A stretch of 64,000 nt of DNA from an uncultured Chloroflexia bacterium. Its GTDB lineage: Bacteria; Chloroflexota; Limnocylindria; Limnocylindrales; CSP1-4. Positions within the stretch are counted from its first letter, which is position 1. The number at the start of each line of letters is the position of its first letter. The notes under the pieces were generated by a model that did no database searches, was not told the DNA's origin, and saw only the letters and a program-made list of their open reading frames with translations. The translations under genes were made by a program, and so were the position numbers. Positions 38,375 through 63,061 of the stretch are shown piece by piece. The DNA lies in NCBI GenBank assembly GCA_963828165.1, contig CAWHDR010000001.1, positions 2,839,511 to 2,903,510 of the forward strand. The letters run 5' to 3'.

Positions 38375-38539
38375 TCAGGTCGAACGCGCCTGGCGTCCGC
38401 GCAGATCCGCAATGGATCCACCTGCCGCCGAGCGCCAAAGACTGAGGCATGACGGCGCCGAACGCGCCTCACGTAGACTCGGGTTCTCGGCCGCCGGGTC
38501 GCAATCGGGGAGTCGAATGGTGGACGCGCGGTCGACCGG

Positions 38540-38983
38540 ATGAACCCATCCATCGAATGCCCACGCTGCGGCGCCTCGACCGTCGAACGGACGAATTGTG
38601 ATTCCGGAGAACGCTTCCTCGGATGCAGTCGGTTTCCGGCGTGCCGTGGAACACGACCGCTGGTCGACGGCGCTAAAGCGAGCGCGCCGACACATCCCAC
38701 CCTTCCCACTCGTCCGGCGCGCCCAACCCGCCCAACCCGCTACAAGCTGAGCGCGGGCGGCCGGGCTCGCAATCTCCCAGATGTCGTCGAGCTACTGGTC
38801 GCCCGAGCGATCGGTAGAAACCTGACGCCGATCCAAGGCTGCATCGTCCAAGTCCTCGCTGTCGTGGTCTTCGCAGGCCTCGTGTACGCGTTCTTCGTTT
38901 CCGGCCTGTTCATGCGGGTCGTCGAGCCATTCGCTCAGTGGTACACAGACCAGGTGTTCCCCACGCCCACAACAGCGCCCTGA
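38540..38983 (+). CDS. Topoisomerase-type C4 zinc-ribbon protein with C-terminal TM helix
   Basis: CPRCG...RFLGCSRFPACRGT followed by a Pro-rich linker and a hydrophobic helix. Confidence 0.75.
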   Translation: MNPSIECPRCGASTVERTNCDSGERFLGCSRFPACRGTRPLVDGAKASAPTHPTLPTRPARPTRPTRYKLSAGGRARNLPDVVELLVARAIGRNLTPIQGCIVQVLAVVVFAGLVYAFFVSGLFMRVVEPFAQWYTDQVFPTPTTAP

Positions 38984-39022
38984 TCGGAACGCGCCGGATC
39001 GAGGAGTAAGGAGGTTACGCCC

Positions 39023-39406
39023 GTGGGATCAGTCGAGGAAGCAATCCGGGCGAGATTCAGGACGCCCACGACGCTTCATACCCTGGGGCAAAGAAAGCCT
39101 TTCGTCCTTCAGCGCATCGACCACAATGGGATCGTTCTCCTGCTCGGGAAACAGCGGAACTACACGCCGTTGGGCTGGGACTGTCTCGAGGGCATCGTCC
39201 CGTTCCTGCGTCGTTACTCCGGATGGGTACCCGCCGGCGGGACGTACGTGGTCGACGGCGAGCTCGGCACGCTCGATGAATACCTGAAGGACTGCATCTC
39301 ACGGCAGACCTCGCGTTGGGTCGCTGTGGTCCTGCAGGAAGCTGGCGTCGTCGGCGTGGATAAGGGTCCGCCCCTGCGAGTCCGGCTCACCGAACAGTTC
39401 AGGTAA
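39023..39406 (+). CDS. Hypothetical protein
   Basis: Strong AAGGAGG RBS and a globular-looking 127-aa ORF. Confidence 0.75.
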   Translation: MGSVEEAIRARFRTPTTLHTLGQRKPFVLQRIDHNGIVLLLGKQRNYTPLGWDCLEGIVPFLRRYSGWVPAGGTYVVDGELGTLDEYLKDCISRQTSRWVAVVLQEAGVVGVDKGPPLRVRLTEQFR

Positions 39407-39472
39407 CCGCTGCTCGACCGGAATCGGGCCTCTGACAGCCTAGGTGGCACACGCGATCGTCAGGATCGCGAC

Positions 39473-39874
39473 ATGAACGGTTTCGGTACCGCGCGACACC
39501 GTCAATTGCCCGTCGGGCTGCTCTCAGCCGGCTGGGCCGATGGCAATCGAGGCGAGAACCTCGTGGTCGAGGTCCTGGCCGCCGCTGGGGTCGCCCCTCG
39601 CTTCAACGTGGCCGGTAGCGTCCTCGACTGCCATCAGCAGTTCGCCGTCGGGCCGTACACGCTCGATTTCGCCTGGCCGAAGCTCAGGATCGGGCTCGAG
39701 GCGGACGGCGGGATCCACCAGAAGACCCGCTGCTACACGCGCGATCGCCGCCGCGACGCCTGGCTGCGGGAGCACGGCTGGCTGATGTTCCGCGTCGACA
39801 TCGAGAACCGCGCCCTGCTCCCGAGCCAGATCGGGCGGGTCCTCGACGTCGTCCGTGCGATGGCGCGCGCATGA
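39473..39874 (+). CDS. DUF559 / Vsr-like endonuclease domain protein
   Basis: QFAVGPYTLDFAW...LEADGGIH...DRRRDAWLREHGWLMFR. Confidence 0.85.
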   Translation: MNGFGTARHRQLPVGLLSAGWADGNRGENLVVEVLAAAGVAPRFNVAGSVLDCHQQFAVGPYTLDFAWPKLRIGLEADGGIHQKTRCYTRDRRRDAWLREHGWLMFRVDIENRALLPSQIGRVLDVVRAMARA

Positions 39875-39954
39875 GCGCCTCGAGGATGGCGACGGGCGCT
39901 GACTAGACTTTCGCTCGACCGAACCGGTTGGGGAACGAAAAAGAGGGAGCGTCG

Positions 39955-40482
39955 GTGACTGCAGGCACGCCGGACCGCGTCTATCGCGCGATCAGTCGAG
40001 TGAGTCATGACAACCGCCGCTACTGGCCGACCCTCGACGTCCCCGTCGCACCACAGCGCTGGAACCGAGAGGATCAGCCCACCATCTACGCGTCGCGCGA
40101 GCCGCAAGTCGCGGCAGCCGAGAAGCTTGGGCAACTGTCGAGATCACCGACGCTCCGCTCGGCGCGTGCATTCTGGAGCATCGCGCCGGCCACGGACGAG
40201 GTGTTCATCCTATCCTTCGACCCCAGCGTCTTTCGCGCCAACCTCGCCGATCTCACGGGTCTCCCGGACATCGGCGACTTCCTGACGCCGGACTACAAGG
40301 CCAGTCAGGAGCGCGCCGCCACCCTGCTCGCAAATGGGATGACGGCATTGCGCGCGCCGTCGGCGGTGTTCTGGCCAGACCTGCACCTCAACGAGGCGTA
40401 CTTCGTCACACTGCCTGGCCAGCCCCAACGGGAGCAGTTCCCGCAGGTGCACGAGTTCGGCAAGTTCAAGGGTGAGCCTTGA
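39955..40482 (+). CDS. RES domain protein (putative NAD-targeting toxin)
   Basis: VYR, QRWN...IYASREPQVAAAE, DYKASQ and LRAPSA, the R-E-S family pattern. Confidence 0.75.
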   Translation: MTAGTPDRVYRAISRVSHDNRRYWPTLDVPVAPQRWNREDQPTIYASREPQVAAAEKLGQLSRSPTLRSARAFWSIAPATDEVFILSFDPSVFRANLADLTGLPDIGDFLTPDYKASQERAATLLANGMTALRAPSAVFWPDLHLNEAYFVTLPGQPQREQFPQVHEFGKFKGEP

Positions 40483-40526
40483 CAGTGGGACCTAACTGGG
40501 ATATGGTCGGGACTCGAATGGGAGTC
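40479..40526 (+). promoter_or_regulatory. Sigma70-type promoter with phased GGGA repeats
   Basis: TTGACA (40479)-N17-TATGGT (40502). GGGA occurs at 40487, 40498, 40509 and 40520. Confidence 0.7.
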
Positions 40527-40531
40527 ATCGC

Positions 40532-40933
40532 ATGACCGCCGTCCTCGAATCGGTCAAAGCAACCCAGCAGGCGACCGACCAGAGTTCACTGCTCGCTATC
40601 GCCGCCTTCTTCGGGGTTCCTCCCACCGGCGAAGTGATGCAGCAACTCACCGGGAAGGGCAGCTCCGTGCTCGATCGGGTGAAGAACGGAGCCAAGCTCG
40701 GCTCGGCCGATGACCGCGCACACCTCGAGGTATTGGCGGCATTCGTCCGGGAGTTGCACGGGTACCTCACGCACGCGATGGGTTCACGCTCGCCCGACGC
40801 GCACGGCATGGAACGCTGGCTCGCTGCGGGCCAAGTCGAAGTCGGAGCCCGGACATACCGGCCGATCGAGGCGCTCGCCGATCGAGAACTCGCCATTGGC
40901 GCCCTGAACACGCTCCGCGCCACGCTGGACTGA
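40532..40933 (+). CDS. Putative Xre/MbcA/ParS-like antitoxin
   Basis: HTH-like N-half and C-terminal MERWL...GARTYRPIEAL resembling the DUF2384 W-L...P-I/L-E-L pattern. Adjacent to the RES gene. Confidence 0.55.
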   Translation: MTAVLESVKATQQATDQSSLLAIAAFFGVPPTGEVMQQLTGKGSSVLDRVKNGAKLGSADDRAHLEVLAAFVRELHGYLTHAMGSRSPDAHGMERWLAAGQVEVGARTYRPIEALADRELAIGALNTLRATLD

Positions 40934-41003
40934 CGCCAAACGCTCGTCGCATACACTCCGGCTGAGTCAACGCGAACCTGCGTCGATCGGGGGAGGGGAG
41001 AGG

Positions 41004-42943
41004 TTGCACCTCTACCAGGGCACGACCCAGCAGTTCATCGCCGACGCTACGCAGGCGCGCCTGGCGAACATGCTCTCCGACCGGTGGTTCGACGAGTTCC
41101 GCTACCGGCCGTCGCCGTCCGAGGTCACGTCCTGGCGAAACTCGCTCGAGCGCGATGGCGCACGTCCTCCAGGTCGCCGACCTGACCGACCAGGGGATCC
41201 TCGTCGAGCTCAAGATGCCGCTCACCTCGAAGCGGCTCGACGTCCTCATCACCGGCTCGAACCCCGACACGAAGCGCGACTCCGCCGTCATCGTCGAGCT
41301 CAAGCAGTGGACCGAGGTCGGCCGCTCGAACATCACCGACTGCGTCACCGTCGACTACGGCGGCAGGCCGCGCGACACCTCCACCCGTCGCGCCAGGTCG
41401 CGCAGTACCAGCGCTACCTGCTGGACACGCATCCGGCGTTCTCCGACGACCGCGCGATCGCGCTCGACGCCTGCGCCTACCTCCACTACGCCCAGCACGA
41501 CCCGACGTCGCCGCTCTACCACGCCGACTTCGCGACGCTGCTCGGCACGAACCCGTCGTTCGCCGGCGACCAGTCGGACGCGCTTCGCGACCTTCCTCGA
41601 CCAGCGCGTCGCCGGCCCGGACGAGGGCGAGATCCTCGAGCGCGTCGCCGCGACCGCCTTCAAGCCGCACAAGCGCCTGCTCGACCACGTCGCCCGCGTC
41701 ATCCGCAACGAGCCGACCTTCGTGCTCCTCGACGAGCAGCTCGTCGCCTACAACGCGATCCTCGACGCGGTCGGCCACGCCGGCACAGAACCAGCAGAAC
41801 GTCGTCTTCCTCATCGAGGGCGGCCCGGGCACCGGCAAGTCGGTCATCGCCCTCAACCTCGTCGCGGAGCTCGCCGAGCGCGGCCTCAGCACGCTCCACC
41901 TGACCGGCTCGAAGGCGTTCACCGAGAACCTGCGCAAGATCGTCGGCGGCCGGGCCGGCGCGCTGTTCAAGTACTTCCGCGACACCGCGACCGTCACCGA
42001 CAAGCTCGACGTCGCCATCCTCGACGAGGCCCACCGCATCCGGACGATCAGCACGAGCCGCTTCACGCCCGCGAAGGCGCGCACGGGCAAGTCCCAGATC
42101 GACGACATCCTCGACTCGAGCCGGGTCACCGTCTTCTTCATCGATGACCTGCAGGTCGTGCGCCCGGGCGAGGTCGGCAGCACGGACCTGATCCGCGAGG
42201 CGGCCGCCAAGCGCTGCGATCGAGGTCCGCGACTTCAAGCTCGAGGCGCAGTTCCGCTCGAACGGCTCCGATTCGTTCATCCAGTGGGTCGACAACACGC
42301 TCGAGCTCGACCGGACGCCGCAGGTCCTGTGGTCGATGGACGACGAGTTCGACTTCCAGATCGTCGGCTCGATCGGCCAGCTCGAGCAGAAGATCCGCGC
42401 CAAGGCCGGCGAGCCGGGACGACCGCCCGACTCGTCGCCGGCTTCTGCTGGCCCTGGTCCGACCCCGACGACGACGGCCAGCTCGTGCCGGACGTCAGGG
42501 TAGGGGAGTGGTCGATGCCCTGGAACGCCAGGGACGGCGTCGGCCGGCTCGGGCCCGGCATCCCGAAGTCGGACTTCTGGGCGAGCGCGAAGGAGGGGAT
42601 CGACCAGGTCGGCTGCGTCTACACCGCGCAGGGCTTCGAGTTCGACTACGTCGGCGTGATCGTCGGCCCCGACCTCGTCTACCGGCCGATGGACGGGGGA
42701 TGGGTCGGCCAGCGCGACCAGTCGCACGACCGCGTCGTCCGCCGCGGCGTCACCGAGGCCGAGTTCACCCGCTACGTCAAGAGCACCTACCGCGTCCTGC
42801 TGACCCGCGGCCTCCGCGGCTGCTACGTCTACTTCATGGACGCCCCGACGCGCGACTTCTTCCTGAGCCGGACCGAAAGCTCGCGCGGGGCTCTTCGTCA
42901 CACCGCGGAGACCAAAGCAACCTATGCACGCGATGGACAGTGA
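41004..42943 (+). CDS. DUF2075 (Schlafen group 3-type DNA/RNA helicase) with N-terminal nuclease-like domain; several frameshifts
   Basis: SEVTSWRNSL, KRLDVLI..IVELKQW, IEGGPGTGKS, ILDEAHR, ARLVAGFCWPW, GCVYTAQGFEFDYVG and YRVLLTRG. Confidence 0.88.
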
Positions 42944-44017
42944 TGCGTATCTCCGAAAGTCTCTCGAGCGACTTGATCGGAGCCGCCGGCCTGTTACTGC
43001 TTGGTCTGCTCGCCGCCGCATGGTTCCTCATCGGCCTTCCGGAGATGCCTTCCCTTGCAAGCCCAATCAACCTTGAAACCGGCCGCCCCTTGGAGGTCAC
43101 GCTCTCAGCGCAGTCCGCGCCACCTCCAGCCCAAGTCACCGTCCGAATCACTGTCGTGGACGCGAACACGAGTCAGGGAGACATTGCAGCGCTCGTGCAG
43201 GTTCGAATTGCGGACAAGCACCTACTCGCCCTTCGTGACGTAGCGACTCCTCCGATCTGCGCGGGGGCCAATCGACGGCGACGGGTACGGTTGTTGTCGT
43301 CAGGCGAAACGGACGGCTTGGACTCACCGACGATTGTTACGGGCAACTTGCGTTCGATCTGACCCTCCTACCCACCGAGGGTGGCGCCACGCACATATTG
43401 ATCGGCCTTGGGTCGGTCGTGGATCGGCCAACTGGCTTCACAGGAGCCAGCTTTGCCACAAACGTGGCGTCGCCCGCGTTCTCCACCCCGCGCGCCTTTC
43501 CTGATGACAAACAGTGGTACGCAGCGTTTCCATCGCTCTCCTACGATCGCCTCGTTGAGAGGACTGCGACAGGGTTTGCGTTCTACGCAGACGTGCGCTT
43601 TGAGATCGAGCGAGCCGGGCACTCGGAAGCCAGGATGTCAGCGTAGACACCGCGGCCGCCGATGGGAGTGCGCCAGTCTCATTCGTCGTTTCACGGGACG
43701 CCGTCACGCGATTGTGGGTGTATGGAGCAGCACTGCTTCCTACCGCCCTCTTCCTAGCGGTTAGTTTGAGTAGCAAGTCCAAAAACCGATCGGGCACTCA
43801 ACCGGACATCGACGTGCTGAACATCGGAATTTCGCTGCTGGCAATTCTGTCCTTATCGACGTCCTGGTCCCCGCCGAAGCGGAAACGCCAAATCGGGTCC
43901 AACGATTGTTGGTCGGCCAGATCGTGGCATTTGTTGTGTGGCCGAGCTGGCGGGATTGGCTCCGAAGATCGCATGTTGCGATGCGTTCGGCCCCTGACCC
44001 AGCATCACCCCGCGTAG
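42943..44017 (+). CDS. Putative membrane protein (N-terminal TM, soluble domain, C-terminal TMs); frameshifted, end approximate
   Basis: TGATG coupling to DUF2075. Hydrophobic segments lie in ORFs 42508-43362 and 43712-44017. Confidence 0.5.
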
Positions 44018-44063
44018 GGCAAGAACCACCGGCCGATCCGGGAACGATTGATCGGAGACCCAA

Positions 44064-46060
44064 ATGAAGTTGCTCCGGGCCAGGGTTCAGAACTATCGAA
44101 GCATCCTCGACAGCGGGTGGTTCGACGTTGAGGAACAGAAGACCATCTTGGTCGGGACGAACGAGTCGGGCAAGACCGCCCTCTTGCGCGCGCTCCAAAC
44201 ACTCAACCCTCCGGCAGGCGAAGGGGAACTGGAGGCCTTTCAAGACTTCCCGCGGTCAGACTATGGACGGATTTCGGGCGGGGCGACATCGCCCCCGAGG
44301 ATGTTGTCATCGTAGAAGGCGACTTCGCCGTCGATGAGGACCTCCGGGCCCGCCTCGCGGCTATCGACGCAACGATTCGGCATCGTTCAGACGGTCCGGA
44401 TTGCGCGCTACCTGGCTAACAATCGGCGAGTGTCGATGGACGGAGTAACGTCCAGTGTCCGCTGGCGCACGATGGCGCGTAAGTTTGGATCGGCTCCGCT
44501 CCAACGCCGAGAAGGCCGGGGGCCAGGAGGCGACACTCAGGGCATTTGACGTCTTATCGCGTGATTTGGACTCAGATGACTTCGTTCTTGGGGAGGTCGC
44601 CGAGAAGCTGTCTGAGTGGCTGCGCGAGTCCGCCCAGGTTTGAAGGCCTCAGATCAGGCCGCTGTTTTGACATCCCTGCTCGAGATTCGAACTGAGTTGC
44701 CCGGCCGACACGCTAGGGCTCGCGAAGCTGTGCTCGAAGCAGCTCCCCTCGCTCTTTGTCTATTACTCAAGCTTCACAACCGTGCGGCCCCGAATAACCT
44801 GTCCCTTCTAGCTACTCGAATACAGGCGAACGATGTGGACGCCGACCTGGACGCCGGCAATGTCGCTCTGTTCAAACTTCTTCGGCTCGACGCTGCCGAA
44901 GTCTCCGCCCAGGGCAAGGCATCGGTCAAATCGGTGACGTCGCAGGAAGACGCCGAGCAGGTACAGAACCAACTGGCCAAACGACAACATACCCTCGCTG
45001 AGGCTGGCGAAGGACCTCACTTCGGCCGTCCGAAAGGTATGCGGGGCGAGAAGCACAAACTGGAATTCCGCGCGGATGGCGATTGGGTGCGCGTAGTCGT
45101 CGTTGAGAATGATGTCGACATCGAACTGGATCAGCGCAGTGCCGGATTTCTTGTCTGGTTGGTCAGCTTTTATGTCGTCTTCAAGGCGGAAACGGCTGAC
45201 AACTTGGCAAATGCAATTCTTCCTTCTCGACGAACCAGGACTGAGTCTCTGATGCCCCGAAGCAACGACAATTTCGCGAAACTGTGTCGTCAATCGCGAC
45301 GGGCAATCAAACGCTATATACGACCCATTCACCTTTCATGGTGGGTCCAGATGAATTGCACCTGGTTCGCGTGGTCGAACTACGCTCCAGGAAGGGCACT
45401 CGGGTCCATCAAGGGGTCACCAGCGCTGATCCGGCCGCGCTATTTCCCCTCCAAGCGGCACTCGGGTACAGCATGGCGCAATCGCTGTTTGCGCAGCAGT
45501 CCGAACCTCGTTTGTGAAGGGCTCACCGATTTCTGGTACATCGAAGGCATGAGCAATCTGCTGGGCGAACGCAAGCGGCCTTCTCTTCGTGAAGACATAG
45601 CGATCGTGCCGGCTGGAGGAGCCAGCAAAGTGGCCTACTTTGCCGTTCTCCTTCGCGCCCAAAAGCTCCAGGTTGCAGCTCTGTTGGATTCCGACACCGA
45701 AGGCGAGCATGCGGCGGGCCTGAGCGAGTTCGTGTACGCCCTTGGTCGGGCGCAAATCCTTCGGACAGGCGACTTCACGGCGAAAGTCGGGACGCTCTAC
45801 CACGGAAGACCTCCGTATGACTCTTGTGCACGTTGCCAAGGCAGAACTTGGATGGGATGTACACAAAGCCGCGCTCTCGCAACCAGAGCGCCCAGTCCTC
45901 AAGATTTTCCAGACATCGCATTGGAAAGAACTTCTCCAAGTATCAGTTGGTGAAGGCCTTCGTCAGGTGGACTGGTGCTCATTCGCACAGGGATCTCGAC
46001 CCCGCTGAGGTATCGAATTGGACCCTTCTCTTCGGTCGAATTAACGAAATCCTGAAGTAG
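44064..46060 (+). CDS. OLD-family ATP-dependent nuclease (ABC ATPase + TOPRIM); many frameshifts
   Basis: VQNYRSI, VGTNESGKT (Walker A), RSAGF, LLDEPGLS (Walker B, shifted frame), YTTHSP, LVCEGLTD and LLDSDTEG. Confidence 0.88.
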
Positions 46061-46131
46061 AGGTTTGGAGACGGTCGGTGCTGTTGCGATGCGGCACGAG
46101 TACGGATCCGGACCTTCCTGGGAGACCCTAG

Positions 46132-47738
46132 GTGCGCCTAAGCCTTGAACTGGTCTCTGCATTGGACCTTGAATTCGCATCACACCAGGCGGCCGAGAGA
46201 GGCAGTGACTTCTTCCCGCTGACACTTGCGTTTCGCGCCGCGAACAATCCGGACTTCCTCCGTTGGCTTCGGTCGTCTTGGTCGAAGGGGTTTGTCGCCC
46301 GAGTCAACCCGAATTCGTTGTCGTGCCAAAGCTCGGCGCCGGTACCAGGCTGGCAGTGGACATGCCCGTCGAAGAACGACTGCTATTCGATGCGCTGTGC
46401 GCGCACTTATCGAACATTGCTCTTGGGCAGCTGGTGAATCGGTCAGTTGACTTCGAGGATCGCCCTGCCGCCGAAGACGTCCTCGCGCGAGGCGAAAACT
46501 CTCATGTCCTAATGACCGACATCGTCGCGTTCTACGACTACCTTGACCGGTCAAGACTTGCCATTGAGCTTGAGGACATCACTGGGGAAGGAGAGGCAAC
46601 TTCGGCCCTTTGTGAACTTCTTGACCATGCGATGGGAGATCGGGAAGGAATTCCCCGAAGGGTTGATGCCAACTGCTACGTTCTTGGGCGACGTATACCT
46701 GTCGATTGCAGATCGGGTGTTGGGCCGCGGGGGTACGCCAGTGGTCCGCTGGATCGACGACTATCGTTTCGCCGCGAGCAGTCTTAGGGACGCATTTCAC
46801 CTAAAGACCGAGCTGGAGCTCCAACTTAGGGATCTGGGACTTGTGATCAACTCGGCGAAGACTTGGATGCCAACGCGCGATGAGTACCGAGCGCTCATTG
46901 CGAGCCGAACGGGAGCGGAAGTCGACCGAGACCGCTCTCAAGAGCCGAATCGAAACGCGTATTCGAGATGAGTACGAAACCACTGACGCCGAGGACGATC
47001 GACCGAAATCGGTTCGAGCCAAGGGCGTCCGAATAGACCCCATCCTGGAGGGACGCAGCTCACAGAGGCTGCTGCGGACGACGCTGAATGGGGCGCGACA
47101 CCGCAGGGCTATGCGACGAGTCGTCGAATTGAACTCAGCCTGCGCGAACTCGGCCGGACGGGATCCTCGGCGCCGTTGGGAAGGCTAGGTGTGCTTCTGT
47201 TTCGGCACCCTCACCTGACGAAACAGGTTTCGTACTATCTGCGCACCAGGATCAACGGCGGTTGGGAAGCCGACACGGTTCGACTTGTGTCGGAGGCCTT
47301 GGCGGCCGATGCCTTTCCCTATCCCTGGCAGCGGGGTTGGCTCCTCCACGCACTAATCCCCGCCAAGAAGAAGCCATTGCCCCCAGCGGCTATTGATGTT
47401 CTCTGGCAGCGTTCCATGCTGACGATCTGAGTTTTGTTTCGCTGGTCGCGCGGCGATTGTCCTCGCAACCCAAGGACTTCTACCAGCTCGGTCCAGAGCT
47501 GGCGCACGCCTTCATCTGCGACGTGGCTAAATCCAACGGTGCGGATCTTGTGGGGGCTGCAAGCCTAATGCCCGAGACGACGGCGCGAGATCAAAACATA
47601 GAGTCGGTGCGTCGCGACCGCCTTCTTCTGTCGAGCAATTGCCGAGGCCAGCGCCGACACGAGCGCCATCTACTTGTGATGACATCGGCGGTAAAGAGTG
47701 AGTTCTGCACCTGGCTGGTCGCCGAACTTGAGCATTGA
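46132..47738 (+). CDS. Reverse transcriptase, UG/Abi-like, with helical C-terminal extension; frameshifted, end approximate
   Basis: Joined frames give VPKLGAGTR, TDIVAFYDYLD, GIPEG, FLGDVYL, RWIDD (46747-46761), LGLVINSAKT and later PYPWQRGWLL. Confidence 0.85.
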
Positions 47739-48305
47739 AGCCGAACGGGCAATTCGAAGACTTGAACCGCCTTCGAATAGTCATCGCCCGATCACAGGCC
47801 ACGATCCGTCTGATCCCGAGCCCAACGCGTCGAGCTCAACTCTCCGACTCGGCGGAACTGGGCGTCGTCCGGGCCTTCTCTGTGCTCGAATCTTATCTGA
47901 GCGAACGAGCAGACACCATCATTCGTGAGGACCTTCCGGTTCCTGCGTCCCCCACGTCGCTCACAAAATTCGCTCACCTCAACCTCCTAGGGGCTTTTCG
48001 CGGCAACTTCGAACGAGGGATGGTTGGCTTCTGGAAAAGGCCTCCAATGTCGATCTGCAGAAGCTTCCCGACGGGTGGAGTAGCGTCGACGAGTTTCGCG
48101 AGCTCCGAAATCTCCTTACTCACGGTTTGGGTTACATCCGGCCAGGCGGTGCTCAGCTCCCCAGAGTCTGGCCAAGCGCCTTCGAAAGGTCACGGCAGAT
48201 CCAGGAACCTTCACCGGAGGGGTCCCGGTGGAGAATGAGGATTTCGATGAAATGGCCCGACTGGTCCGATCGACCGTACTGTGGGTCGATCAGCAAGTCA
48301 CGTAA
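47735..48305 (+). CDS. HEPN-domain putative RNase; two frameshifts
   Basis: Helical N-terminus (VVRAFSVLESYL) and R-x4-H motif FRELRNLLTHG (RNLLTH at 48106-48123). Confidence 0.75.
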
Positions 48306-48331
48306 CGGACATAACTCACCTTCTCCCGGGA
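48304..48331 (-). other. Degenerate dif-like Xer recombination site
   Basis: Minus strand reads TCCCGGGAGAA-GGTGAG-TTATGTCCGTT. It shares 17 bp with the site at 49481. Confidence 0.75.
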
Positions 48332-48879
48332 CCCCTCGCCACCAGCTCATTTGCGGCCCCCAGACGCCCTAGGACGGCCGTGGCGCCGCTTTCCGCTCTT
48401 CGATGGCCGTCCGCCTGACTTCGGCGCTCCGGGCGGCGGGGGAGGGCTAGTTTCAGCCTCAGTCGGCGGCTGGCGATCGACGTCGGCGGCCGAGTCACCC
48501 GGCGCGACGTTCCGAGGACCGAGGGACTGCGGACCTGCGGTCCTTCCGTCCCCCGGTCAATCTCAGCGTGCGGGTCCTGAAATCGCGGGCCGTCAAGGGC
48601 GGCTCTGCCGAGCCGTCGCCTGCGGCGATCGCGGACCCTTGACCGCCCTCGTCCAGATCGATACGCCTGAGGCGGGCGCGAATGCAACCGGCGATGCTCT
48701 GGACACCGGAGCTCCGTCCGACCTGGTCGACGCGTCACGGACCAGCCGGCCGCGATCGCGGCCGCGATCGCCTCAGCCCGGGTCACGCCCTGCCGCGTCA
48801 GCGATGTCCAGCACCACCGGCCGTCGCGATCGGCGTAGTCGCAACCGAGGTTCCAGACCTGCAATCTCACCAGCGGCAT
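48316..48879 (-). CDS. Phage-like small Zn-binding protein (first ~65 aa; remainder doubtful)
   Basis: CDY...WC...AIAAGW...LRCPEH, preceded by TTGCAG-N17-TAGGAT-N6-ATG. Confidence 0.6.
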   Translation of the reverse strand: MPLVRLQVWNLGCDYADRDGRWCWTSLTRQGVTRAEAIAAAIAAGWSVTRRPGRTELRCPEHRRLHSRPPQAYRSGRGRSRVRDRRRRRLGRAALDGPRFQDPHAEIDRGTEGPQVRSPSVLGTSRRVTRPPTSIASRRLRLKLALPRRPERRSQADGHRRAESGATAVLGRLGAANELVARGPGRR

Positions 48880-48914
48880 AGCGACATCCTAAACACTCCC
48901 ACTGTTCACTGCAA
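48880..48914 (-). promoter_or_regulatory. Leaderless sigma70-type promoter
   Basis: -35 TTGCAG (48914-48909), 17-bp spacer, -10 TAGGAT (48891-48886), 6 nt to ATG. Confidence 0.65.
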
Positions 48915-49131
48915 GCCCTATTTGTCACGCATATGCAGTCCTGCACCTGTTGAGAGTGTCTATAGGTACGTTTGGTGTGTTGAGACATTGCCTCTGTGTC
49001 AAGGCCGCCAGACGCGCCGGAGCCCGAGTGCATCAACCAACACTCGGGCCCCGGGTCCTCACAGCGCGAGTGATCCACCGGTGTCGCCAACCACCGCACT
49101 CCGCGAGGCCGCTACATTTACGCCCAGATCG

Positions 49132-49395
49132 TCAGCTGTAGACGCGGGGCGGCGTGCCGTTCAGGGTGTCCCGATGCTCGTCCGTGAGCGCGAGTTGAGT
49201 TCGGATTGGCCAGAGCGCCAGGCGAAGATGCATGAAGCGCCCACAGACCGGGACCTGCCAGGGCGGACCCTCGCCGGCCCAGCCGTGCTCGTACATCATC
49301 GGCGACGGGAACTCAACCGACTCAACCGGCGACTCCCCGCAGACCACACAAATCCGCTCGCCGAACCGCCACCGGATCCACGGGTCCACGGGCAA
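49132..49395 (-). CDS. Small Cys/His-rich hypothetical protein
   Basis: CVVC...CGRFMH potential Zn ligands, inside the dif-flanked segment. Confidence 0.4.
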   Translation of the reverse strand: MPVDPWIRWRFGERICVVCGESPVESVEFPSPMMYEHGWAGEGPPWQVPVCGRFMHLRLALWPIRTQLALTDEHRDTLNGTPPRVYS

Positions 49396-49480
49396 TCGCG
49401 CCTCTCGAGAGACCGAACCCTCCGCGTCAGCGTTGCGGTCCGGCTGGGCCGCATTCTGGCCCTCAATGGGGTCAAAATCA

Positions 49481-49508
49481 ACCGGACATAACTCACCTTA
49501 TCGGAAGT
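49481..49508 (-). other. dif: dif site (XerC/XerD chromosome dimer resolution site)
   Basis: Minus strand reads ACTTCCGATAA-GGTGAG-TTATGTCCGGT, an 11-6-11 layout with the ATAA/TTAT dyad and TTATGT XerD-arm start. It is intergenic. Confidence 0.85.
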
Positions 49509-49544
49509 GGCATCGGGGACTTCGGAGGGCCCGGAAGTGGCCAT

Positions 49545-50309
49545 CTACCGCGCCGTCCAGCCGCCGTCGACCGTCAGGACGGTTCCTGTGACCATCCCGG
49601 CTGCCGGCGAGGCCAGATACAGCACCGCGGCGGCGACATCGGCCGTCGACGCGACGCGGCCGGCCGGGATCCGCTCCAGGACGGACGTGAGGAATACCGG
49701 ATCGTCCAGGCGCTCCGCCGTACCGGGCGTGTAGACCCATGTCGGGGCGACGCAGTTGACCGTGACGCCCTGTGGCGTCCACTCCAGCGCCAACACGCGC
49801 GTCAGGCCGATCACCGCCGCCTTGCTCGCCGAATAGGCCGCGTGGCGCGGGATGCCGACCAGACCGGCCTGAGACGCCATGTTGATGATCCGTCCGGAAC
49901 CCTGCGGCAGCATCACCCGGGCGGCGGACTGTGAGGCGAAGAAGAGCCCGCGGACGTTGACCGCGAACAGCTCGTCCCACTCGGCCTCGGTCGCGTCGAT
50001 CGCGTCGTGGTTCGTCCCGAGCCCGGCGTTGTTGACGAGGATGTCGAGTCGCCCGAACGCGTCGACGACCTGCGCGACCGCGCGTTCGATCGACACACGG
50101 TCGGTCAGATCGAGCTCGACAGGGGAGGCTTCGCCACCCGCGGCGCGGATGGCGCTGACGACCGAATTGACGCGCTCCCCTGCCCTCCCGGCAACCCCGA
50201 CCCGAGCGCCGGCCTCGGCGAACGCCATGGCCAGATCGGCGCCGATGCCCCCGGTCGCACCCGTCACGAGCACGACCTGACCCTCGACCGAGAACGAAAC
50301 GGCGGTCAC
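49545..50309 (-). CDS. SDR family oxidoreductase
   Basis: TGATGGIG, NNAG, YSASK and VDGGW. TAGGCT-N6-GTG start. Confidence 0.93.
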   Translation of the reverse strand: MTAVSFSVEGQVVLVTGATGGIGADLAMAFAEAGARVGVAGRAGERVNSVVSAIRAAGGEASPVELDLTDRVSIERAVAQVVDAFGRLDILVNNAGLGTNHDAIDATEAEWDELFAVNVRGLFFASQSAARVMLPQGSGRIINMASQAGLVGIPRHAAYSASKAAVIGLTRVLALEWTPQGVTVNCVAPTWVYTPGTAERLDDPVFLTSVLERIPAGRVASTADVAAAVLYLASPAAGMVTGTVLTVDGGWTAR

Positions 50310-52420: not shown

Positions 52421-53395
52421 TCAGGCGTTGCTGCCGGTGACGATGACGAGGGCCGGCCCGACCGGCCGTTGGCCTGCCAGCAGCCCGGCCCACGAGGCCG
52501 CAGCGGCTCCCTCCACGGTGATCCCGAGCTCGTCGGTCAACTCGGCCTGGGCGCTCCGGAGGGCGTCCTCGGAGACCGTGACCATGTCGTCGACCCGGCC
52601 GCGCATGAGCTCGACCGCACGCGGGATCGCGACGCGCGATGCGATGCCGTCGGCGTACGTGGCCGCGCTGTCCGTGTCGATCGCTCGACCCGCCCGCCAC
52701 GAGAGCGTCATCGCTGCCGCGGCCTCGGCCTGGACGCCCAGCACCCGGCAACCGGGCGCGGCATGGCGCAACCACGAGCCCACGCCGTTGATCAGGGCGC
52801 CATTGCCGACCGGCACGGCAGCGACCGCCGGCATGGGCAGGAGGCCGGCGTCTACGGCGTCGGTGACCTCGAGCGCGAGTGTCCCGGCGCCCGTCGCGAT
52901 GCGGGCATCGTCCCCATCGACGAGGAGCGAGGCATCGTGCTCGGCCGCATAGGTCTCTGAGACGACGCGGGCGTCGTCGAAATCTTCGCCAGCCTCGATC
53001 ACCGTGGCGCCGAGCGCCCGCATCCGGGCGACCTTCGCGCGATTCGCCCGGGTGGAGCAGAAGACCACCGCGGGCACGCCCAGGGCGCGTGCGGCGTAGG
53101 CGACGCCCTGGCCGAAGTTGCCCGCGGACACGCACACGATGGCACGGTCCTGGCCGATGCTCCCCTCCCCCGCCAGCGCCGCCATGGCGACCCACGTGCC
53201 GCGGCCCTTGAACGAGCGGATCGGGTTGACGGTCTCGACCTTGACCACGACCGGGACGCCCAGGCGCGCGGACAGGCCCTCATGGAGGTACTGGGGCGTG
53301 CCGGTGAAGACGGGATCGATCCGATCGTGGGCGGCGCGGATGGCCGCCGGCTCCAGGTCCGGGTGTGCGATCACGGCGCGAGCTGCCCGGGACAT
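52421..53395 (-). CDS. PLP-dependent threonine/serine dehydratase family protein
   Basis: SFKGRG PLP lysine, SAGNFG, PVGNGAL and TGSN. Confidence 0.88.
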   Translation of the reverse strand: MSRAARAVIAHPDLEPAAIRAAHDRIDPVFTGTPQYLHEGLSARLGVPVVVKVETVNPIRSFKGRGTWVAMAALAGEGSIGQDRAIVCVSAGNFGQGVAYAARALGVPAVVFCSTRANRAKVARMRALGATVIEAGEDFDDARVVSETYAAEHDASLLVDGDDARIATGAGTLALEVTDAVDAGLLPMPAVAAVPVGNGALINGVGSWLRHAAPGCRVLGVQAEAAAAMTLSWRAGRAIDTDSAATYADGIASRVAIPRAVELMRGRVDDMVTVSEDALRSAQAELTDELGITVEGAAAASWAGLLAGQRPVGPALVIVTGSNA

Positions 53396-53397
53396 GA

Positions 53398-53589
53398 AAA
53401 CGCCCGAAGGAACGGCCGGTCCGTAGTTGTCAATACCGATGTAAACACCGGTACCGCCACTTGCGGTCTGGCGCCCCTTCGAGCAAGACGAACTGTATCC
53501 GGCGAGGCCGGGGCCTGGGAAGGGGGTTTATCCACGAGTTTGCGAATTGGGTGCGGTGCGGGCTCGCACCGTCCACAGCCCATCCACAG
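53398..53589 (-). repeat. Copy 1 of a ~190-bp structured non-coding unit (stem-loop module + 3 DnaA-box-like sites)
   Basis: Blocks AAACGCCCGAAGGAAC, ATGTAAACAC, GCCCCTTC, GCAAGAC, CCTGGGA, TTATCCACGAGTTT and TCCACAG x2 recur in the same order about 260 bp downstream. Confidence 0.85.
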
Positions 53590-53847
53590 AACCGCACCTC
53601 GTCGCCGCCCGCACTCGTGCCACGCGTCTGCCGCACCGCCGTCCTCCGGCGGACAAAAAGAAACGCCCGAAGGAACTCGATCACTAGATGCCCCGATCCA
53701 TGTAAACACAGATCAGATCACTAGATGTTCGTGCCCCTTCAGGCAAGACCTACCTTACCCGCGCGAGACCCCTGGGACAATCGTGTTATCCACGAGTTTC
53801 CTTGCCGGAGCCTTGCATTTCGAGGGCCTGTCCACAGGCTGTCCACA
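53528..53847 (+). promoter_or_regulatory. Cluster of six co-oriented DnaA-box-like 9-mers
   Basis: TTATCCACG (53528, 53786), CCGTCCACA (53569), CCATCCACA (53580) and CTGTCCACA (53828, 53839), versus consensus TT(A/G)TCCACA. Confidence 0.65.
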
Positions 53848-53848
53848 G
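53661..53848 (-). repeat. Copy 2 of the structured non-coding unit
   Basis: Same conserved blocks with different intervening sequence. A U-tract (TTTCTTTTT) follows the closing stem on the minus strand. Confidence 0.85.
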
Positions 53849-53865
53849 CCGGGGGACGCGAGACC

Positions 53866-55320
53866 TCAGCGGCGGCGCAACAGGAACAGGACCCGGACGC
53901 TGTCCTCGATCGGCGCCTCCCGCACGACCTCGAAGCGTTCCGACGCGGCGGCCCGGAAGCCGTCGAGGGTGTAGTCGGGGAACACGTCACGACGCGTGGC
54001 CAGCAGCCGCCGGACCATGCGGTCCTCCTTGGGGACGAACTCGACGATCGCCCACGGAGCGAGATCCGCGAAGAACCCGAGCACCATCGGCAGCGGCACG
54101 TTGCGCGAGATCGCCAGGTGGTGGACGAGGGCCAGAGCCAGCGCGATGTCCGGATCCGCGCGGTCGAGGAGCGAGCGGCGCTCACGACCCGCCCAGCCGA
54201 TACCCGGGCTCGGGTTCGCGACATCGAGGATGAGCGGCAGGATGTCGGTCCTGCCCTCGGCGCGTAGCTGGCGGTAGTTCCGCTCCGCCGCCGCCGGGTC
54301 GATGTCGAATGCCAGGACGCGCTTGCCGGCGTCGGCCGCGATCCGGCTGTACCGGCCGGTGTTGGCGCCAAGATCCCAGAGCCGCGTGCCCGTGGCCTCG
54401 CCGACGAACGCCTCCACGAGTCGCGCCTTGTCCGCGGTCGCGGCATCGCCGTAGCTCGTGTGGTCGGCGTAGTCGGACCACTCGGTGCCGGCCGGCTCCC
54501 AGCGCAGCCGCTCGACGGTGCCACGCAGGTTCCGGATGAGGCCCTCGAGCCGCTGCCGGCTGATCCGCGCCCCCCGCGCCGCGTCGACGTCGCCCTCATC
54601 TTCGCTGCCGGCATATCGCCGCTGGGCTCGGGCATGGAGGTGAACATGCGACAGCAAGCCGAAATTTAGGCGCGTCCGCCACGGAAGAAGGTTGCTGGCG
54701 AGATCCAGCGGCACGCCGTCGGGGTCGGCGCGGAGCAAGCTCGCGAGTCGGACGTCGCGTCGGGCGATCAATGCCAGCGGCGCCAGGAAGTGCTCACAGA
54801 ACTGGCGGTACGCCACCCACGGCGCGCCCTCTTCGAGCGGCTCGAACGAGAGTGAATCGATCAGGATGGGCCGGGCATCACGGAACTGGACGTTGTACGC
54901 CGAGGCATCCTTGAGCTGCCAGCCTTCGGCCATGGCGTCGAGCTGCGCGTCGAGCGTCAGGAGCGCGGCATCGCGCAGCTCACCGAAGGTCCACTCGAAC
55001 GGATAGCTGATGAACTCGATCTTCTCGGGGCGGATGACCGCGTGGGCGTCGGAGCCCTGCGCGCGTTCGATCGAGATGGGCTCGTACGGGATGAGCCGGT
55101 CACCCTCGATGAGCCGCTGCTTGAGCGGGCTCGCCTCGAACGCGTCCCACTCCGCCGCGAAACTGCGCTGGATCTGGCGGTAGGGCTGGCCGTCCTGCCA
55201 GAAGATGAAACCGCTCGGATCGCGGAACGAGCCGCCGTCCCGCTCGACGGCGCCGGCCGGGGTGGCCGTGTCGGTGCCTGGCACCGCGTTGGCCGGGTCA
55301 GCGACCCCGGGTGCCGTCAT
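53866..55320 (-). CDS. NoeA-like protein: kinase-like N-domain + class I SAM methyltransferase
   Basis: SFRDPSG, LKDASAYNVQF...ILIDSLSF, then LWDLGANTG and LALVHHL. Confidence 0.82.
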   Translation of the reverse strand: MTAPGVADPANAVPGTDTATPAGAVERDGGSFRDPSGFIFWQDGQPYRQIQRSFAAEWDAFEASPLKQRLIEGDRLIPYEPISIERAQGSDAHAVIRPEKIEFISYPFEWTFGELRDAALLTLDAQLDAMAEGWQLKDASAYNVQFRDARPILIDSLSFEPLEEGAPWVAYRQFCEHFLAPLALIARRDVRLASLLRADPDGVPLDLASNLLPWRTRLNFGLLSHVHLHARAQRRYAGSEDEGDVDAARGARISRQRLEGLIRNLRGTVERLRWEPAGTEWSDYADHTSYGDAATADKARLVEAFVGEATGTRLWDLGANTGRYSRIAADAGKRVLAFDIDPAAAERNYRQLRAEGRTDILPLILDVANPSPGIGWAGRERRSLLDRADPDIALALALVHHLAISRNVPLPMVLGFFADLAPWAIVEFVPKEDRMVRRLLATRRDVFPDYTLDGFRAAASERFEVVREAPIEDSVRVLFLLRRR

Positions 55321-55483
55321 GCACAGGCGCAGCGGGCTTGTCCTCGCCGCCGCGACGGCGCACCACGTTCAGGAACCGGCCGATCTGGTGCCGGAAGAAC
55401 AGTGGTATCGCGACTGCGGCCGCGATCGCGGTCTGGATGATGAGGCTGCCGGTGCCCGGATCGATGTACGCGAGTTCAAGCAT
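55298..55483 (-). CDS. Small single-TM protein with AYIDPGTGS motif
   Basis: 61 aa with one hydrophobic helix and a basic tail. It overlaps the methyltransferase start. Confidence 0.75.
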   Translation of the reverse strand: MLELAYIDPGTGSLIIQTAIAAAVAIPLFFRHQIGRFLNVVRRRGGEDKPAAPVHDGTRGR

Positions 55484-55529
55484 GTTCGCGGGTCGCTCCG
55501 ATCTTGGTTAACCGCCCGATAATCCCCTG

Positions 55530-63046: not shown

Positions 63047-63061
63047 CCATCGGCGGCGGAC

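What the first reader, a model, noticed from the sequence alone, without database searches (positions are those of the whole stretch)
44064..48305. Candidate new defence system: OLD ATPase-TOPRIM + UG/Abi-like reverse transcriptase + stand-alone HEPN
Seen: three consecutive same-strand genes of similar lower GC, with a 71-bp gap between OLD and RT and RT abutting HEPN. Known: OLD nucleases partner retron RTs (e.g. Eco8) and Gabija helicases, and AbiA fuses RT to HEPN. This RT does not look like a retron RT: it has a long helical tail, and no msr/msd is evident. I do not recognise this three-gene combination as a named system. Inference: RT-made DNA may gate a DNase and/or an RNase effector.
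Basis: partly seen in the sequence, partly recalled or inferred. Interest (0 to 1): 0.85.

Follow-up and report, generated by a model that had tools for sequence, protein, structure and literature searches.

The report
Known UG22 RT–HEPN pair beside OLD
The reverse transcriptase and HEPN genes are a member of an already described but untested two-gene phage-defence module (UG22), the OLD nuclease next to them looks like an independent neighbour, and the many frameshifts are most likely assembly errors.

Summary
The three same-strand genes exist as described: OLD ATPase-TOPRIM 44064-46060, RT 46132-47679 (71-nt gap), HEPN 47698-48305, in a low-GC tract. The RT is UG22, a Class 1 UG/Abi reverse transcriptase (three pieces best-hit PADLOC RT_UG22). 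The HEPN is its known partner: Mestre 2022 already describes UG22 plus a HEPN neighbour.

In 53 distinct UG22 loci from public genomes and metagenomes, the HEPN gene follows the RT in 43 of the 45 with room for it. All 43 carry R-[NH]-x3-H. None has an OLD ATPase-TOPRIM. Three intact relatives of this OLD sit beside no RT, and in genome G190 OLD and UG22-HEPN lie on different contigs. So this is two adjacent modules, not a new three-gene system.

The locus carries 20-25 frameshifts and no in-frame stop. An equally dense patch at the end of the same contig breaks hflX and miaA, which are intact on a duplicate contig. A neighbouring helicase gene, 85% identical to an intact orthologue, has six frameshifts. 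The frameshifts are therefore probably consensus errors. Reads could not be obtained. The gene context of the RT's closest clade is unknown.

The parts
44064..46060 (+). OLD-family ABC ATPase + TOPRIM nuclease, P2-Old-like (Class 1-like). As assembled it is broken by 11-13 frameshifts.
   Evidence: Pfam AAA_15 2.2e-8 and OLD-like_TOPRIM 1.4e-5. Read through, it is 52% identical (337/649) to the intact 658-aa G190 homologue, with 0 in-frame stops. The three intact homologues best-hit PADLOC 'Old' at 1e-21 to 2e-24. Nearest solved sequence is 6p74, an OLD-family endonuclease, at 2.9e-7; I recall, not from a call, that this entry is the Thermus scotoductus Class 1 OLD. Walker A (GTNESGKT), Walker B (LLDEPG) and TOPRIM (CEG, DSD) motifs are readable.
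46061..46131 (.). 71-nt spacer between OLD and RT
   Evidence: Coordinates. No promoter or terminator signal above chance in 43000-49600. No Rfam match.
46132..47679 (+). UG22 reverse transcriptase (Class 1 UG/Abi: RT domain plus C-terminal helical domain). As assembled it is broken by 6-9 frameshifts.
   Evidence: PADLOC RT_UG22 on three pieces covering profile positions 54-169, 177-258 and 334-394 of 476. Read through, it is 46-51% identical to the closest representatives P0001 and P0003, which are themselves RT_UG22. Motifs TDIVAFYDY and RWIDDYRF are present. One shift falls in the codon of the invariant Gln of the PQG motif.
47698..48305 (+). UG22-associated HEPN protein (RTasHEPN family) with motif RNLLTH. 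As assembled it is broken by 3 frameshifts.
   Evidence: The pieces align colinearly with 25 HEPN partners and with the family HMM at positions 18-115, 115-150 and 155-200 in three frames. PADLOC RTasHEPN 2.9e-4. It is 47.5% identical to the L056 partner over 80 residues. The fold of the L040 partner resembles HEPN proteins.
41100..48200 (.). Stretch of dense single-base indels, probably a low-quality consensus patch of the assembly. It covers the DUF2075/SLFN-type helicase gene and the whole finding.
   Evidence: 26-31 frameshifts and 0 in-frame stops. A matching patch at 59421-63836 is shown to be an artefact by comparison with contig C6.

Best explanation
The stretch holds two separate anti-phage modules that lie side by side on a horizontally acquired low-GC islet inside a small defence island. 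The island also contains a RES-Xre toxin-antitoxin pair, a DUF559-type endonuclease and a DUF2075/SLFN-type helicase.

Module 1 is a stand-alone P2-Old-like OLD nuclease. By analogy with characterised Class 1 OLD proteins, I infer an ATPase-regulated TOPRIM nuclease that nicks or degrades DNA.

Module 2 is the described two-gene UG22 system: a Class 1 UG/Abi reverse transcriptase followed by a roughly 200-aa HEPN protein. By analogy with the solved Class 1 enzymes AbiK, Abi-P2, AbiA and DRT4, I infer that the RT makes protein-primed, untemplated single-stranded DNA. I further infer that a phage factor sensed through this product or through the helical domain releases the HEPN partner, whose R-[NH]-x3-H site is invariant, to cut RNA and stop the infected cell. 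A structural role for HEPN, as in AbiA, is the alternative.

Shown here: the family assignments, the RT-HEPN linkage, the lack of OLD linkage, and error patches elsewhere in the assembly. Inferred: the enzymology, the trigger, and that the frameshifts in this locus are consensus errors, so that the genes are intact in the organism.
For: Family assignment:
- Three RT pieces best-hit RT_UG22.
- All 44 RT ORFs tested from related loci, and the 4 closest representatives, best-hit RT_UG22.
- Mestre 2022 states that UG22 is associated with a HEPN-like neighbour cluster (passages read).

RT-HEPN linkage:
- The HEPN family HMM hits directly downstream on the same strand in 43 of 53 distinct loci. Of the other 10, 8 have too little sequence left after the RT, and 2 (L034, L084) truly lack the gene.
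- R-[NH]-x3-H is present in 43 of 43 partners.
- PADLOC RTasHEPN hits 4 of the 6 partners tested (1.6e-33 to 6e-9). L033 and L071 gave no hit.
- The L040 RT model (pLDDT 89.4) best matches DRT4/UG15, DRT6, Abi-P2, AbiK and AbiA over its full length.
- The L040 HEPN model (pLDDT 91.4) has HEPN proteins as top VIA matches: 5yep_B Z 8.5, rmsd 4.2, 131 aligned; 2hsb_A Z 8.0, rmsd 3.7, 115 aligned.
- The predicted RT-HEPN complex gave weak support. Score 0.59, best of 3 controls 0.00. In calibration the mark was reached by 58 of 80 solved complexes and 2 of 110 mismatched pairs, but at 0.60 or under by only 7 of those 80 and by both mismatches that passed. The runs agree in at least 91% of contacts, and partner pLDDT is at least 76. 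Fused RT-HEPN AbiA is solved, so the pass may be from memory.

OLD independence:
- Pfam on 120 + 76 neighbour ORFs gave OLD-like_TOPRIM 0 times and AAA_15 once, in L049, which has no TOPRIM hit.
- A six-frame HMM of this OLD clade over 584 kb of UG22 loci hit only L049 (1.5e-8) and L073 (2.8e-5).
- The OLD relatives in G190, G331 and G173 sit beside type I R-M plus AbiE, type II R-M plus GmrSD, and purD respectively. None sits beside an RT.
- In G190, OLD is on contig C8 and UG22-HEPN on C10.

Frameshifts as artefact:
- 20-25 frameshifts and 0 in-frame stops in the locus.
- The DUF2075 gene is 85% identical (536/629) to an intact orthologue yet has 6 frameshifts and 0 stops.
- Contig C6 duplicates window 52885-64000. 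It is nearly identical over 54-59 kb (13 mismatches, 0 gaps). It differs by 44 gaps over 59421-63836, where C1 breaks hflX, miaA and a large gene that are all open on C6.

Mechanism by analogy: abstracts of PMC11077055 (AbiA) and bioRxiv 10.64898/2026.10.21.760695 (DRT4).
Against: - OLD, RT and HEPN share strand, low GC and short spacers (71 and 18 nt). That fits one co-transferred unit and possibly one transcript.
- The window RT's immediate clade (P0001, P0003-P0006) consists of proteins whose gene context I could not fetch, so a clade-specific OLD linkage is not excluded.
- The two nearest loci with context (L056, L033) do carry a third small HEPN-like gene upstream of the RT, so the position occupied here by OLD can hold an accessory gene.
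- No reads could be laid on the locus, so the artefact reading rests on analogy with other patches and on the absence of stops.
- The direct PADLOC hit of the window HEPN piece is weak (2.9e-4).
- The structural matches of the HEPN model (Z 7-8.5) are in the range that helical bundles reach by chance.
- No UG22 system has been tested experimentally. Mestre 2022 rated its defence association inconclusive.
- In AbiA the HEPN domain is enzymatically inactive.
Confidence: 0.7

Rival explanations
1. One reading: a coupled three-gene system. In this lineage OLD has been recruited as a second (DNase) effector of the UG22 RT, as OLD is in Retron-Eco8, with RT-made DNA gating both OLD and HEPN.
For: Same strand, 71-nt and 18-nt spacers, and shared low GC. 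OLD upstream of an RT mimics the Class 3A retron layout described in PMC10568477 (passages read). The slot upstream of the RT holds an accessory HEPN-like gene in L056 and L033. L049 has an AAA_15/AAA_21 ATPase 0.6 kb downstream of its UG22-HEPN pair. The context of the closest RT clade is unknown.
Against: 0 of 53 UG22 loci have an OLD ATPase-TOPRIM. 0 of 3 OLD relatives have an RT neighbour, and they share no common neighbour. The two modules are unlinked in G190. The intact OLD relatives score better against PADLOC 'Old' (1e-21) than against the retron ATPase-Toprim_I-B model (3.6e-11).
Confidence: 0.08
2. The frameshifts are real: the islet is a decayed remnant in which all three genes, and the neighbouring helicase gene, are dead pseudogenes.
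For: The assembly as given has 26-31 frameshifts in 41.1-48.2 kb. No independent copy or read set of this stretch was available. The locus DNA was not found in 40 relatives, including 24 of the same genus, so the islet is dispensable.
Against: There are 0 in-frame stop codons among about 1,340 aligned codons despite 20-25 indels. Neutral decay normally adds far more substitutions than indels (general knowledge, not computed here). The helicase gene keeps 85% identity to an orthologue in another genus yet has 6 indels. The same contig has a patch of equal indel density in hflX and miaA that an alternative contig of the same assembly shows to be intact. The genome scores 87.7% complete with only 6 contigs, which fits broken marker genes.
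Confidence: 0.15
3. The HEPN partner is not an RNase effector but a structural cofactor of the polymerase, as in AbiA. Defence would then come from the DNA product itself.
For: [quoted passage not shown] The predicted RT-HEPN contact has weak support: 0.59 against a best control of 0.00, with the calibration counts given under the best explanation.
Against: R-[NH]-x3-H is kept in 43 of 43 partners and in the window copy, which argues for a working active site. DRT4, the best structural match of the RT, activates an effector RNase.
Confidence: 0.2

Closest known systems
UG22 + HEPN neighbour (Class 1 UG/Abi RT system; Mestre et al. 2022, PMC9226505; PADLOC RT_UG22 / RTasHEPN)
   Same: Best profile match. 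RT plus C-terminal helical domain. A separate ~200-aa HEPN gene lies directly downstream with R-[NH]-x3-H.
   Different: The window copy is about 50% identical to its closest known relatives. It sits behind an OLD gene and, as assembled, is frameshifted.
AbiA (Lactococcus; RT-helical-HEPN fusion; PDB 8oz7)
   Same: Class 1 UG/Abi RT combined with a HEPN domain. The RT model matches 8oz7_B (E 2.3e-7, TMq 0.45).
   Different: HEPN is fused in AbiA and a separate gene here. The AbiA HEPN is reported inactive, whereas this family keeps the catalytic motif.
DRT4 / UG15 (PDB 9vdo, 9l9s)
   Same: Best full-length structural match of the UG22 RT model (E 2.6e-11). It makes untemplated ssDNA and activates an RNase (abstract).
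   Different: DRT4 is a single-gene system with its own C-terminal effector region. UG22 has a separate HEPN gene. It is a different UG group by profile.
Class 1 OLD nucleases (P2 Old; Thermus scotoductus OLD)
   Same: ABC ATPase plus TOPRIM. Best PADLOC model for the intact relatives is 'Old'. Nearest solved sequence is 6p74, an OLD-family endonuclease; that 6p74 is the Thermus scotoductus Class 1 OLD is recalled, not from a call. The three relatives share no conserved partner gene.
   Different: The review says Class 1 OLD genes are not found near other defence genes. Here, and in G190 and G331, the gene sits among defence genes.
Retron-Eco8 / type I-B retrons (Class 3 OLD)
   Same: An OLD gene next to a reverse transcriptase. 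OLD upstream of the RT is the Class 3A layout.
   Different: The RT is UG22, not a retron RT. No ncRNA family matched. The linkage does not recur.

Membership tests
UG22 (Class 1 UG/Abi reverse transcriptase) | Best match to the UG22 profile rather than to other UG/DRT/retron profiles | tested here: met
   RT_UG22 is the top hit for 3 of 5 RT pieces (4.1e-21, 1.3e-18, 2.4e-8); the other 2 pieces gave no hit. The closest relatives P0001-P0004 are RT_UG22 at 1e-68 to 3e-84.
UG22 (Class 1 UG/Abi reverse transcriptase) | RT catalytic motifs (motif A Asp, motif C xDD, PQG) | tested here: met
   TDIVAFYDY and RWIDDYRF are readable and fall on invariant columns of A1 and A3. The PQG glutamine codon is interrupted by a frameshift.
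UG22 (Class 1 UG/Abi reverse transcriptase) | C-terminal alpha-helical repeat domain | tested here: met
   The window pieces align to the C-terminal half of P0003 and to profile positions 334-394. The model of relative L040 is all-helical from residue 291 and matches DRT4, DRT6, Abi-P2, AbiK and AbiA over its full length. The window protein itself was not folded because it is broken.
UG22 (Class 1 UG/Abi reverse transcriptase) | HEPN-like gene as conserved neighbour | tested here: met
   Found in 43 of the 45 loci with room for it. The window HEPN pieces are colinear with the family.
UG22 (Class 1 UG/Abi reverse transcriptase) | Intact reading frame / functional gene | tested here: inconclusive
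   6-9 frameshifts as assembled. These are probably consensus errors. No reads were obtainable.
HEPN superfamily (RTasHEPN) | R-x4-H motif and helical HEPN fold | tested here: met
   RNLLTH in the window. R-[NH]-x3-H in 43 of 43 partners. PADLOC RTasHEPN 2.9e-4 for the window piece, and 1.6e-33 to 6e-9 for 4 of 6 partners tested. The fold match is moderate only: 5yep_B Z 8.5, rmsd 4.2, 131 aligned. Foldseek found nothing at E<=0.001.
OLD family nuclease | N-terminal ABC-type ATPase plus C-terminal TOPRIM in one protein | tested here: met
   AAA_15 2.2e-8 and OLD-like_TOPRIM 1.4e-5. Colinear over the full length with 658-688-aa relatives.
Class 2 OLD (Gabija GajA) | Adjacent UvrD/PcrA-like helicase (GajB) | tested here: not met
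   No UvrD-type hit among the window ORFs around the gene. The gene downstream is the RT. The helicase 1.1 kb upstream is DUF2075/SLFN-type.
Class 3 OLD / retron type I-B | Retron RT and msr-msd ncRNA next to OLD | tested here: not met
   The RT is UG22. There was no Rfam match at E<=0.1 in 38000-50000, but few retron ncRNAs are modelled, so the ncRNA part alone is weak.
AbiA | HEPN fused to the C-terminus of the RT | tested here: not met
   There is a stop at 47677-47679 and a new start at 47698. In the 27 related loci where ORFs were called, the HEPN partner is a separate ORF after the RT.

The most novel reading that the evidence does not exclude
In the window's own, so far context-less UG22 clade (P0001, P0003-P0006), the slot upstream of the RT has been filled by an OLD ATPase-TOPRIM nuclease. 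In the neighbouring clades (L056, L033) that slot holds a small HEPN-like gene. This would create a non-retron RT system that drives both a DNase and an RNase effector, a UG/Abi counterpart of Retron-Eco8.
Probability: 0.07. Interest if true: 0.6.

Novelty: new member of a known kind. Interest (0 to 1): 0.22.

Why it matters
This finding should not be carried forward as a new three-gene defence system.

What remains useful is modest. UG22-HEPN is still experimentally untested, and in 2022 its defence association was rated inconclusive. The survey here shows three things:
- The RT-HEPN pairing is near-obligate (43 of 45).
- The HEPN catalytic motif is invariant (43 of 43).
- The pair travels with integrases, relaxases, IS elements and other defence genes such as Shedu, Mrr, Z1, R-M and OLD.

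This strengthens the case for testing UG22-HEPN as an abortive-infection system. Named intact copies are available for that in cultured Actinomycetota (Dactylosporangium, Actinoplanes, Plantactinospora, Glaciihabitans, Lentzea, Amycolatopsis, Saccharothrix).

The work also flags that this assembly contains kilobase-scale patches of dense indel errors. Other 'pseudogene' calls from the same genome need the same caution.

Tried and rejected
- The word-based protein search with the RT ORF (longer lengths) scored nothing.
- The look-up of sequencing runs listed no run for 44000-48400, so no reads could be laid.
- No relative of the RT was confirmed in viral contigs.
- Foldseek of the HEPN model against PDB gave nothing at E<=0.001. 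The VIA wide search was used instead.
- The promoter/terminator scan of 43000-49600 gave no more sites than shuffles.
- Rfam gave no match in 38000-50000.
- A homologue-free 'long-ORF cover' metric for error patches was not informative. It missed the proven patch at 59-64 kb, and the low-GC islet fails its GC3 filter anyway.
- Of the six phylum hits to the UG22 profile that covered most of its length, four turned out to be other groups: UG20, UG21 (genome G078, unpublished; only this labelling rests on it), UG19 and Drt8. They were dropped.
- Before counting loci, three were dropped as the same sequence as another (L062 = L039; L080 and L086 = L079).
- My first reading, that two TGA nonsense codons lie in the RT, was rejected. 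The true path leaves and re-enters that frame.
- The treekit run gave no answer. The tree was redone with MAFFT and FastTree, without support testing.
- The supplementary tables of Mestre 2022, which list the neighbour clusters of UG22, were not available. They could name further associated clusters.
Full report
**Anatomy**

The window is the last 64 kb of contig C1 of a 3.31-Mb, 6-contig genome with about 70% GC. Between about 43,000 and 48,500 the GC content falls to 0.56-0.63, against 0.65-0.71 on either side.

Three + strand genes lie in this tract, but none is open in a single frame. I aligned intact relatives to the DNA with a frameshift-aware dynamic programme. That gave these paths:
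- OLD runs from 44064 to 46057 plus its stop. It has 11-13 frameshifts and is 52% identical (337/649) to a 658-aa relative.
- The RT runs from 46132 to 47676 plus its stop. It has 6-9 frameshifts and is 46-51% identical to the two closest known proteins.
- HEPN runs from 47698 to 48302 plus its stop, with 3 frameshifts.

The RT-HEPN spacer is 18 nt. No aligned codon is a stop.

**What the genes are**

- *OLD.* Pfam finds AAA_15 at the start of the first gene and OLD-like_TOPRIM further on.
- *RT.* No RT piece hits Pfam. PADLOC, however, puts three pieces on RT_UG22 at colinear profile positions (54-169, 177-258, 334-394 of 476), and no other UG, DRT or retron model scores better. A full HMMER pass over 1.84 billion representative proteins with the first RT piece found only 45 proteins at E<=0.001, the best at 49% identity. 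The four closest are RT_UG22 at 1e-68 to 3e-84.
- *Literature.* Mestre et al. 2022 (passages read) place UG22 in Class 1 of the UG/Abi RTs, which carry a C-terminal alpha-repeat domain. They state that UG22 is associated with a neighbour protein cluster remotely similar to HEPN, and they rate its defence association as inconclusive. The word OLD does not occur in their main text. Their supplements were not available to me. A full-text search for 'UG22' with 'reverse transcriptase' found 4 papers and listed 3. Mestre 2022 was the only relevant one.

**Does RT-HEPN recur?**

I aligned the closest representatives (A1) and used the alignment to fetch related loci:
- 17 loci from species-representative genomes, all Actinomycetota by record title.
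- 37 loci from metagenome contigs.
- 2 loci from a 400-genome scan of the phylum.

After dropping three loci that were the same sequence as another, 53 remain. All 44 RT ORFs that I tested are RT_UG22.

A roughly 190-210-aa ORF follows the RT on the same strand in locus after locus. These ORFs align with each other and, colinearly, with the three window pieces. An HMM built from that alignment, searched over six-frame translations with no composition filter, finds the gene directly downstream in 43 of the 53 loci. Eight of the other ten have too little sequence left after the RT. Two (L034, L084) really lack the gene.

Further support for the HEPN assignment:
- All 43 partners carry R-[NH]-x3-H. 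The window has RNLLTH.
- Four of the six partners tested hit PADLOC RTasHEPN (1.6e-33 to 6e-9). Two (L033, L071) did not.
- An AlphaFold model of the L040 partner (pLDDT 91.4) gave no Foldseek match.
- In the all-against-representatives VIA search its top rows are mostly HEPN proteins: 5yep_B Z 8.5, 1jog_A 8.2, 2hsb_A 8.0, 7ae2_A 7.4, the sacsin HEPN and Csm6. These Z values are in the range where helical bundles can match by chance.

The model of the L040 RT (pLDDT 89.4) matches DRT4/UG15, DRT6, Abi-P2, AbiK and AbiA over its whole length. This confirms the Class 1 architecture.

A predicted RT-HEPN complex gave only weak support:
- Score 0.59, against a best of 3 controls of 0.00.
- In calibration the mark was reached by 58 of 80 solved complexes and 2 of 110 mismatched pairs. 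At 0.60 or under it was reached by only 7 of those 80 and by both mismatches that passed.
- The runs agree in at least 91% of contacts, and partner pLDDT is at least 76.
- Because AbiA is a solved RT-HEPN fusion, the pass may reflect likeness to that structure.

**Does OLD recur with it?** No.

From the RT side:
- Pfam on 120 neighbour ORFs of 19 loci, and on 76 ORFs of the remaining loci, gave no OLD-like_TOPRIM hit.
- It gave one AAA_15/AAA_21 ATPase without TOPRIM, in L049, downstream of the pair.
- One ordinary ABC-transporter ATPase beside an FtsX permease, in L084, also touched AAA_21.
- My ORF picking used a GC3 filter that could miss foreign genes. I therefore repeated the test with an HMM of three intact OLD relatives over all six frames of 584 kb. 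Only L049 (1.5e-8) and a weak L073 segment (2.8e-5) scored, while the window pieces scored 1e-9 to 7e-67.

From the OLD side:
- A 202-aa OLD piece found relatives in 4 of 400 other genomes of the phylum.
- The three full-length relatives (658-688 aa) best-hit PADLOC 'Old'.
- Their nearest solved sequence is 6p74, an OLD-family endonuclease. I recall, not from a call, that this is the Thermus scotoductus Class 1 OLD.
- They sit beside a type I R-M system and AbiE, beside a type II R-M system and GmrSD, and beside purD. No RT is near any of them and they share no common neighbour.
- G190, a genome of the same family as the window's, has both modules, on contigs C8 and C10.

By the published scheme (review passages), this OLD is Class 1-like. 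It is not Class 2, because no UvrD-type neighbour was found. It is not Class 3, because the RT is not a retron RT.

**What keeps the three-gene idea alive**

- The three genes look like one co-transferred block.
- In a FastTree of UG22 RTs (midpoint-rooted, no support test), the window RT groups with five metagenome proteins whose context I could not obtain.
- The next clades include L056 and L033. There a small gene with an R-x-R-N-x-L-A-H motif, 39% identical between the two loci, precedes the RT. An accessory gene in that slot therefore has precedent.

I put this reading at about 7-8%.

**Are the frameshifts real?**

Several results argue that they are assembly errors.
- The genome scores only 87.7% complete despite having 6 contigs.
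- Within the window, the housekeeping genes miaA and hflX are each split across two frames.
- Contig C6 (24.1 kb) duplicates window 52885-64000 and the start of C5.
- C1 and C6 are practically identical over 54,000-58,999 (13 mismatches, 0 gaps). They differ in two patches: 53013-53860 (15 gaps) and 59421-63836 (44 gaps, mostly single bases).
- In the second patch C6 has long open frames, including hflX (491 aa) and miaA (336 aa). C1 needs about 24 frameshifts to follow them.
- In the first patch the PALP gene on C1 is full-length by Pfam, and no comparable ORF was listed on C6. C6 looks like the poorer copy there, though I did not test this further.
- So this assembly carries kilobase-scale patches with about one indel per 100-200 bases.
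- The finding has the same density, one per 170-210 bases, and no stop codons.
- The patch extends left into the DUF2075/SLFN-type helicase gene (41001-42973). That gene is 85% identical to an intact orthologue in another genus yet has six frameshifts and no stop.
- One RT shift falls inside the codon of the invariant glutamine of the PQG motif.

I rate consensus error at about 85% and real decay at about 15%. No sequencing run was listed for the stretch, so this was not tested directly.

**Context**

Upstream of the finding lie a DUF559/MTES_1575-type endonuclease ORF, a RES toxin with an adjacent small gene, and the DUF2075 helicase. Downstream the housekeeping genes resume with an SDR gene at 49548. 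The locus DNA was not found in 40 relatives, 24 of them of the same genus. No tRNA gene is in the window. Other UG22 loci lie next to integrases, serine recombinases, relaxases, IS elements, Shedu, Mrr, Z1, CHAT and R-M genes. This fits a mobile defence module.

**Mechanism (inferred)**

Solved Class 1 enzymes make protein-primed, untemplated ssDNA. This is stated in the AbiA abstract and the DRT4 abstract. The Abi-P2 and AbiK structures are among the best fold matches. DRT4 couples this synthesis to an RNase that is licensed by a phage SSB.

For UG22 I propose the same logic with the RNase on a separate HEPN subunit. The alternative is that HEPN is a structural cofactor, as in AbiA. OLD would act alone on DNA.

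**Verdict**

This is a new, divergent member of a described but uncharacterised two-gene system, lying next to an unrelated stand-alone OLD gene, in a stretch of poor consensus. It is not a new kind of system.

Noticed in passing
window 52885-64000 (and contigs C5, C6 of G000): Contig C6 (24.1 kb) duplicates the end of C1 (96.6% over 11.15 kb) and the start of C5 (95.3% over 9.3 kb). Differences between C1 and C6 are confined to patches at 53013-53860 and 59421-63836. In the second patch C1 breaks hflX, miaA and a large gene that are all open on C6.
   Followed up: yes
window 41001-42973: A DUF2075 / Schlafen-group-3-type helicase gene is 85% identical to an intact 635-aa orthologue in another genus of the family, yet carries 6 frameshifts and no stop. 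It marks the left part of the error-dense patch.
   Followed up: yes
window 39407-40933: Directly upstream of the helicase gene lie a DUF559/MTES_1575-type endonuclease-like ORF (39407-39871), then a RES-domain toxin (39928-40482) and a small 133-aa gene (40532-40933, no Pfam hit). Together with the finding they form a small defence island.
   Followed up: partly
window 48306-48325 and 49483-49502: A 20-nt direct repeat (19 of 20 identical) occurs only at these two places in the genome. The first copy starts at the base after the HEPN stop codon. The second lies just before the SDR gene. It may be an att-like scar bounding a 1.2-kb segment with no recognisable gene.
   Followed up: partly
L056:7383-7880 and L033:7075-7686: In the two context-bearing loci nearest the window's RT, a small gene (about 150-200 aa) with an R-x-R-N-x-L-A-H motif lies directly upstream of the UG22 RT. 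The two copies are 39% identical. It has no Pfam or PADLOC hit and may be a third component in this subclade. No homologue is in the window.
   Followed up: partly
L049:9953-11389: In a Dactylosporangium genome an AAA_15/AAA_21 ATPase (479 aa, no TOPRIM hit; PADLOC AriA/HEC-01A-like) lies about 0.6 kb downstream of the RT ORF end and about 80 nt after the UG22-HEPN pair. It is the only such case among 53 loci.
   Followed up: partly
L034 and L084: Two UG22 RTs have ample downstream sequence but no HEPN partner. L034 sits among glycosyltransferase genes.
   Followed up: no
L098:5697-7517: A 607-aa protein with no Pfam or PADLOC hit lies directly downstream of the G190 OLD homologue, between it and an AbiE pair. 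It has no counterpart next to the other two OLD relatives or in the window.
   Followed up: partly
L039:7383-7880: The 'ORF' upstream of this UG22 locus reads like a translated tRNA gene. A tyrosine integrase lies 3 kb downstream, which suggests a tRNA-integrated island.
   Followed up: no
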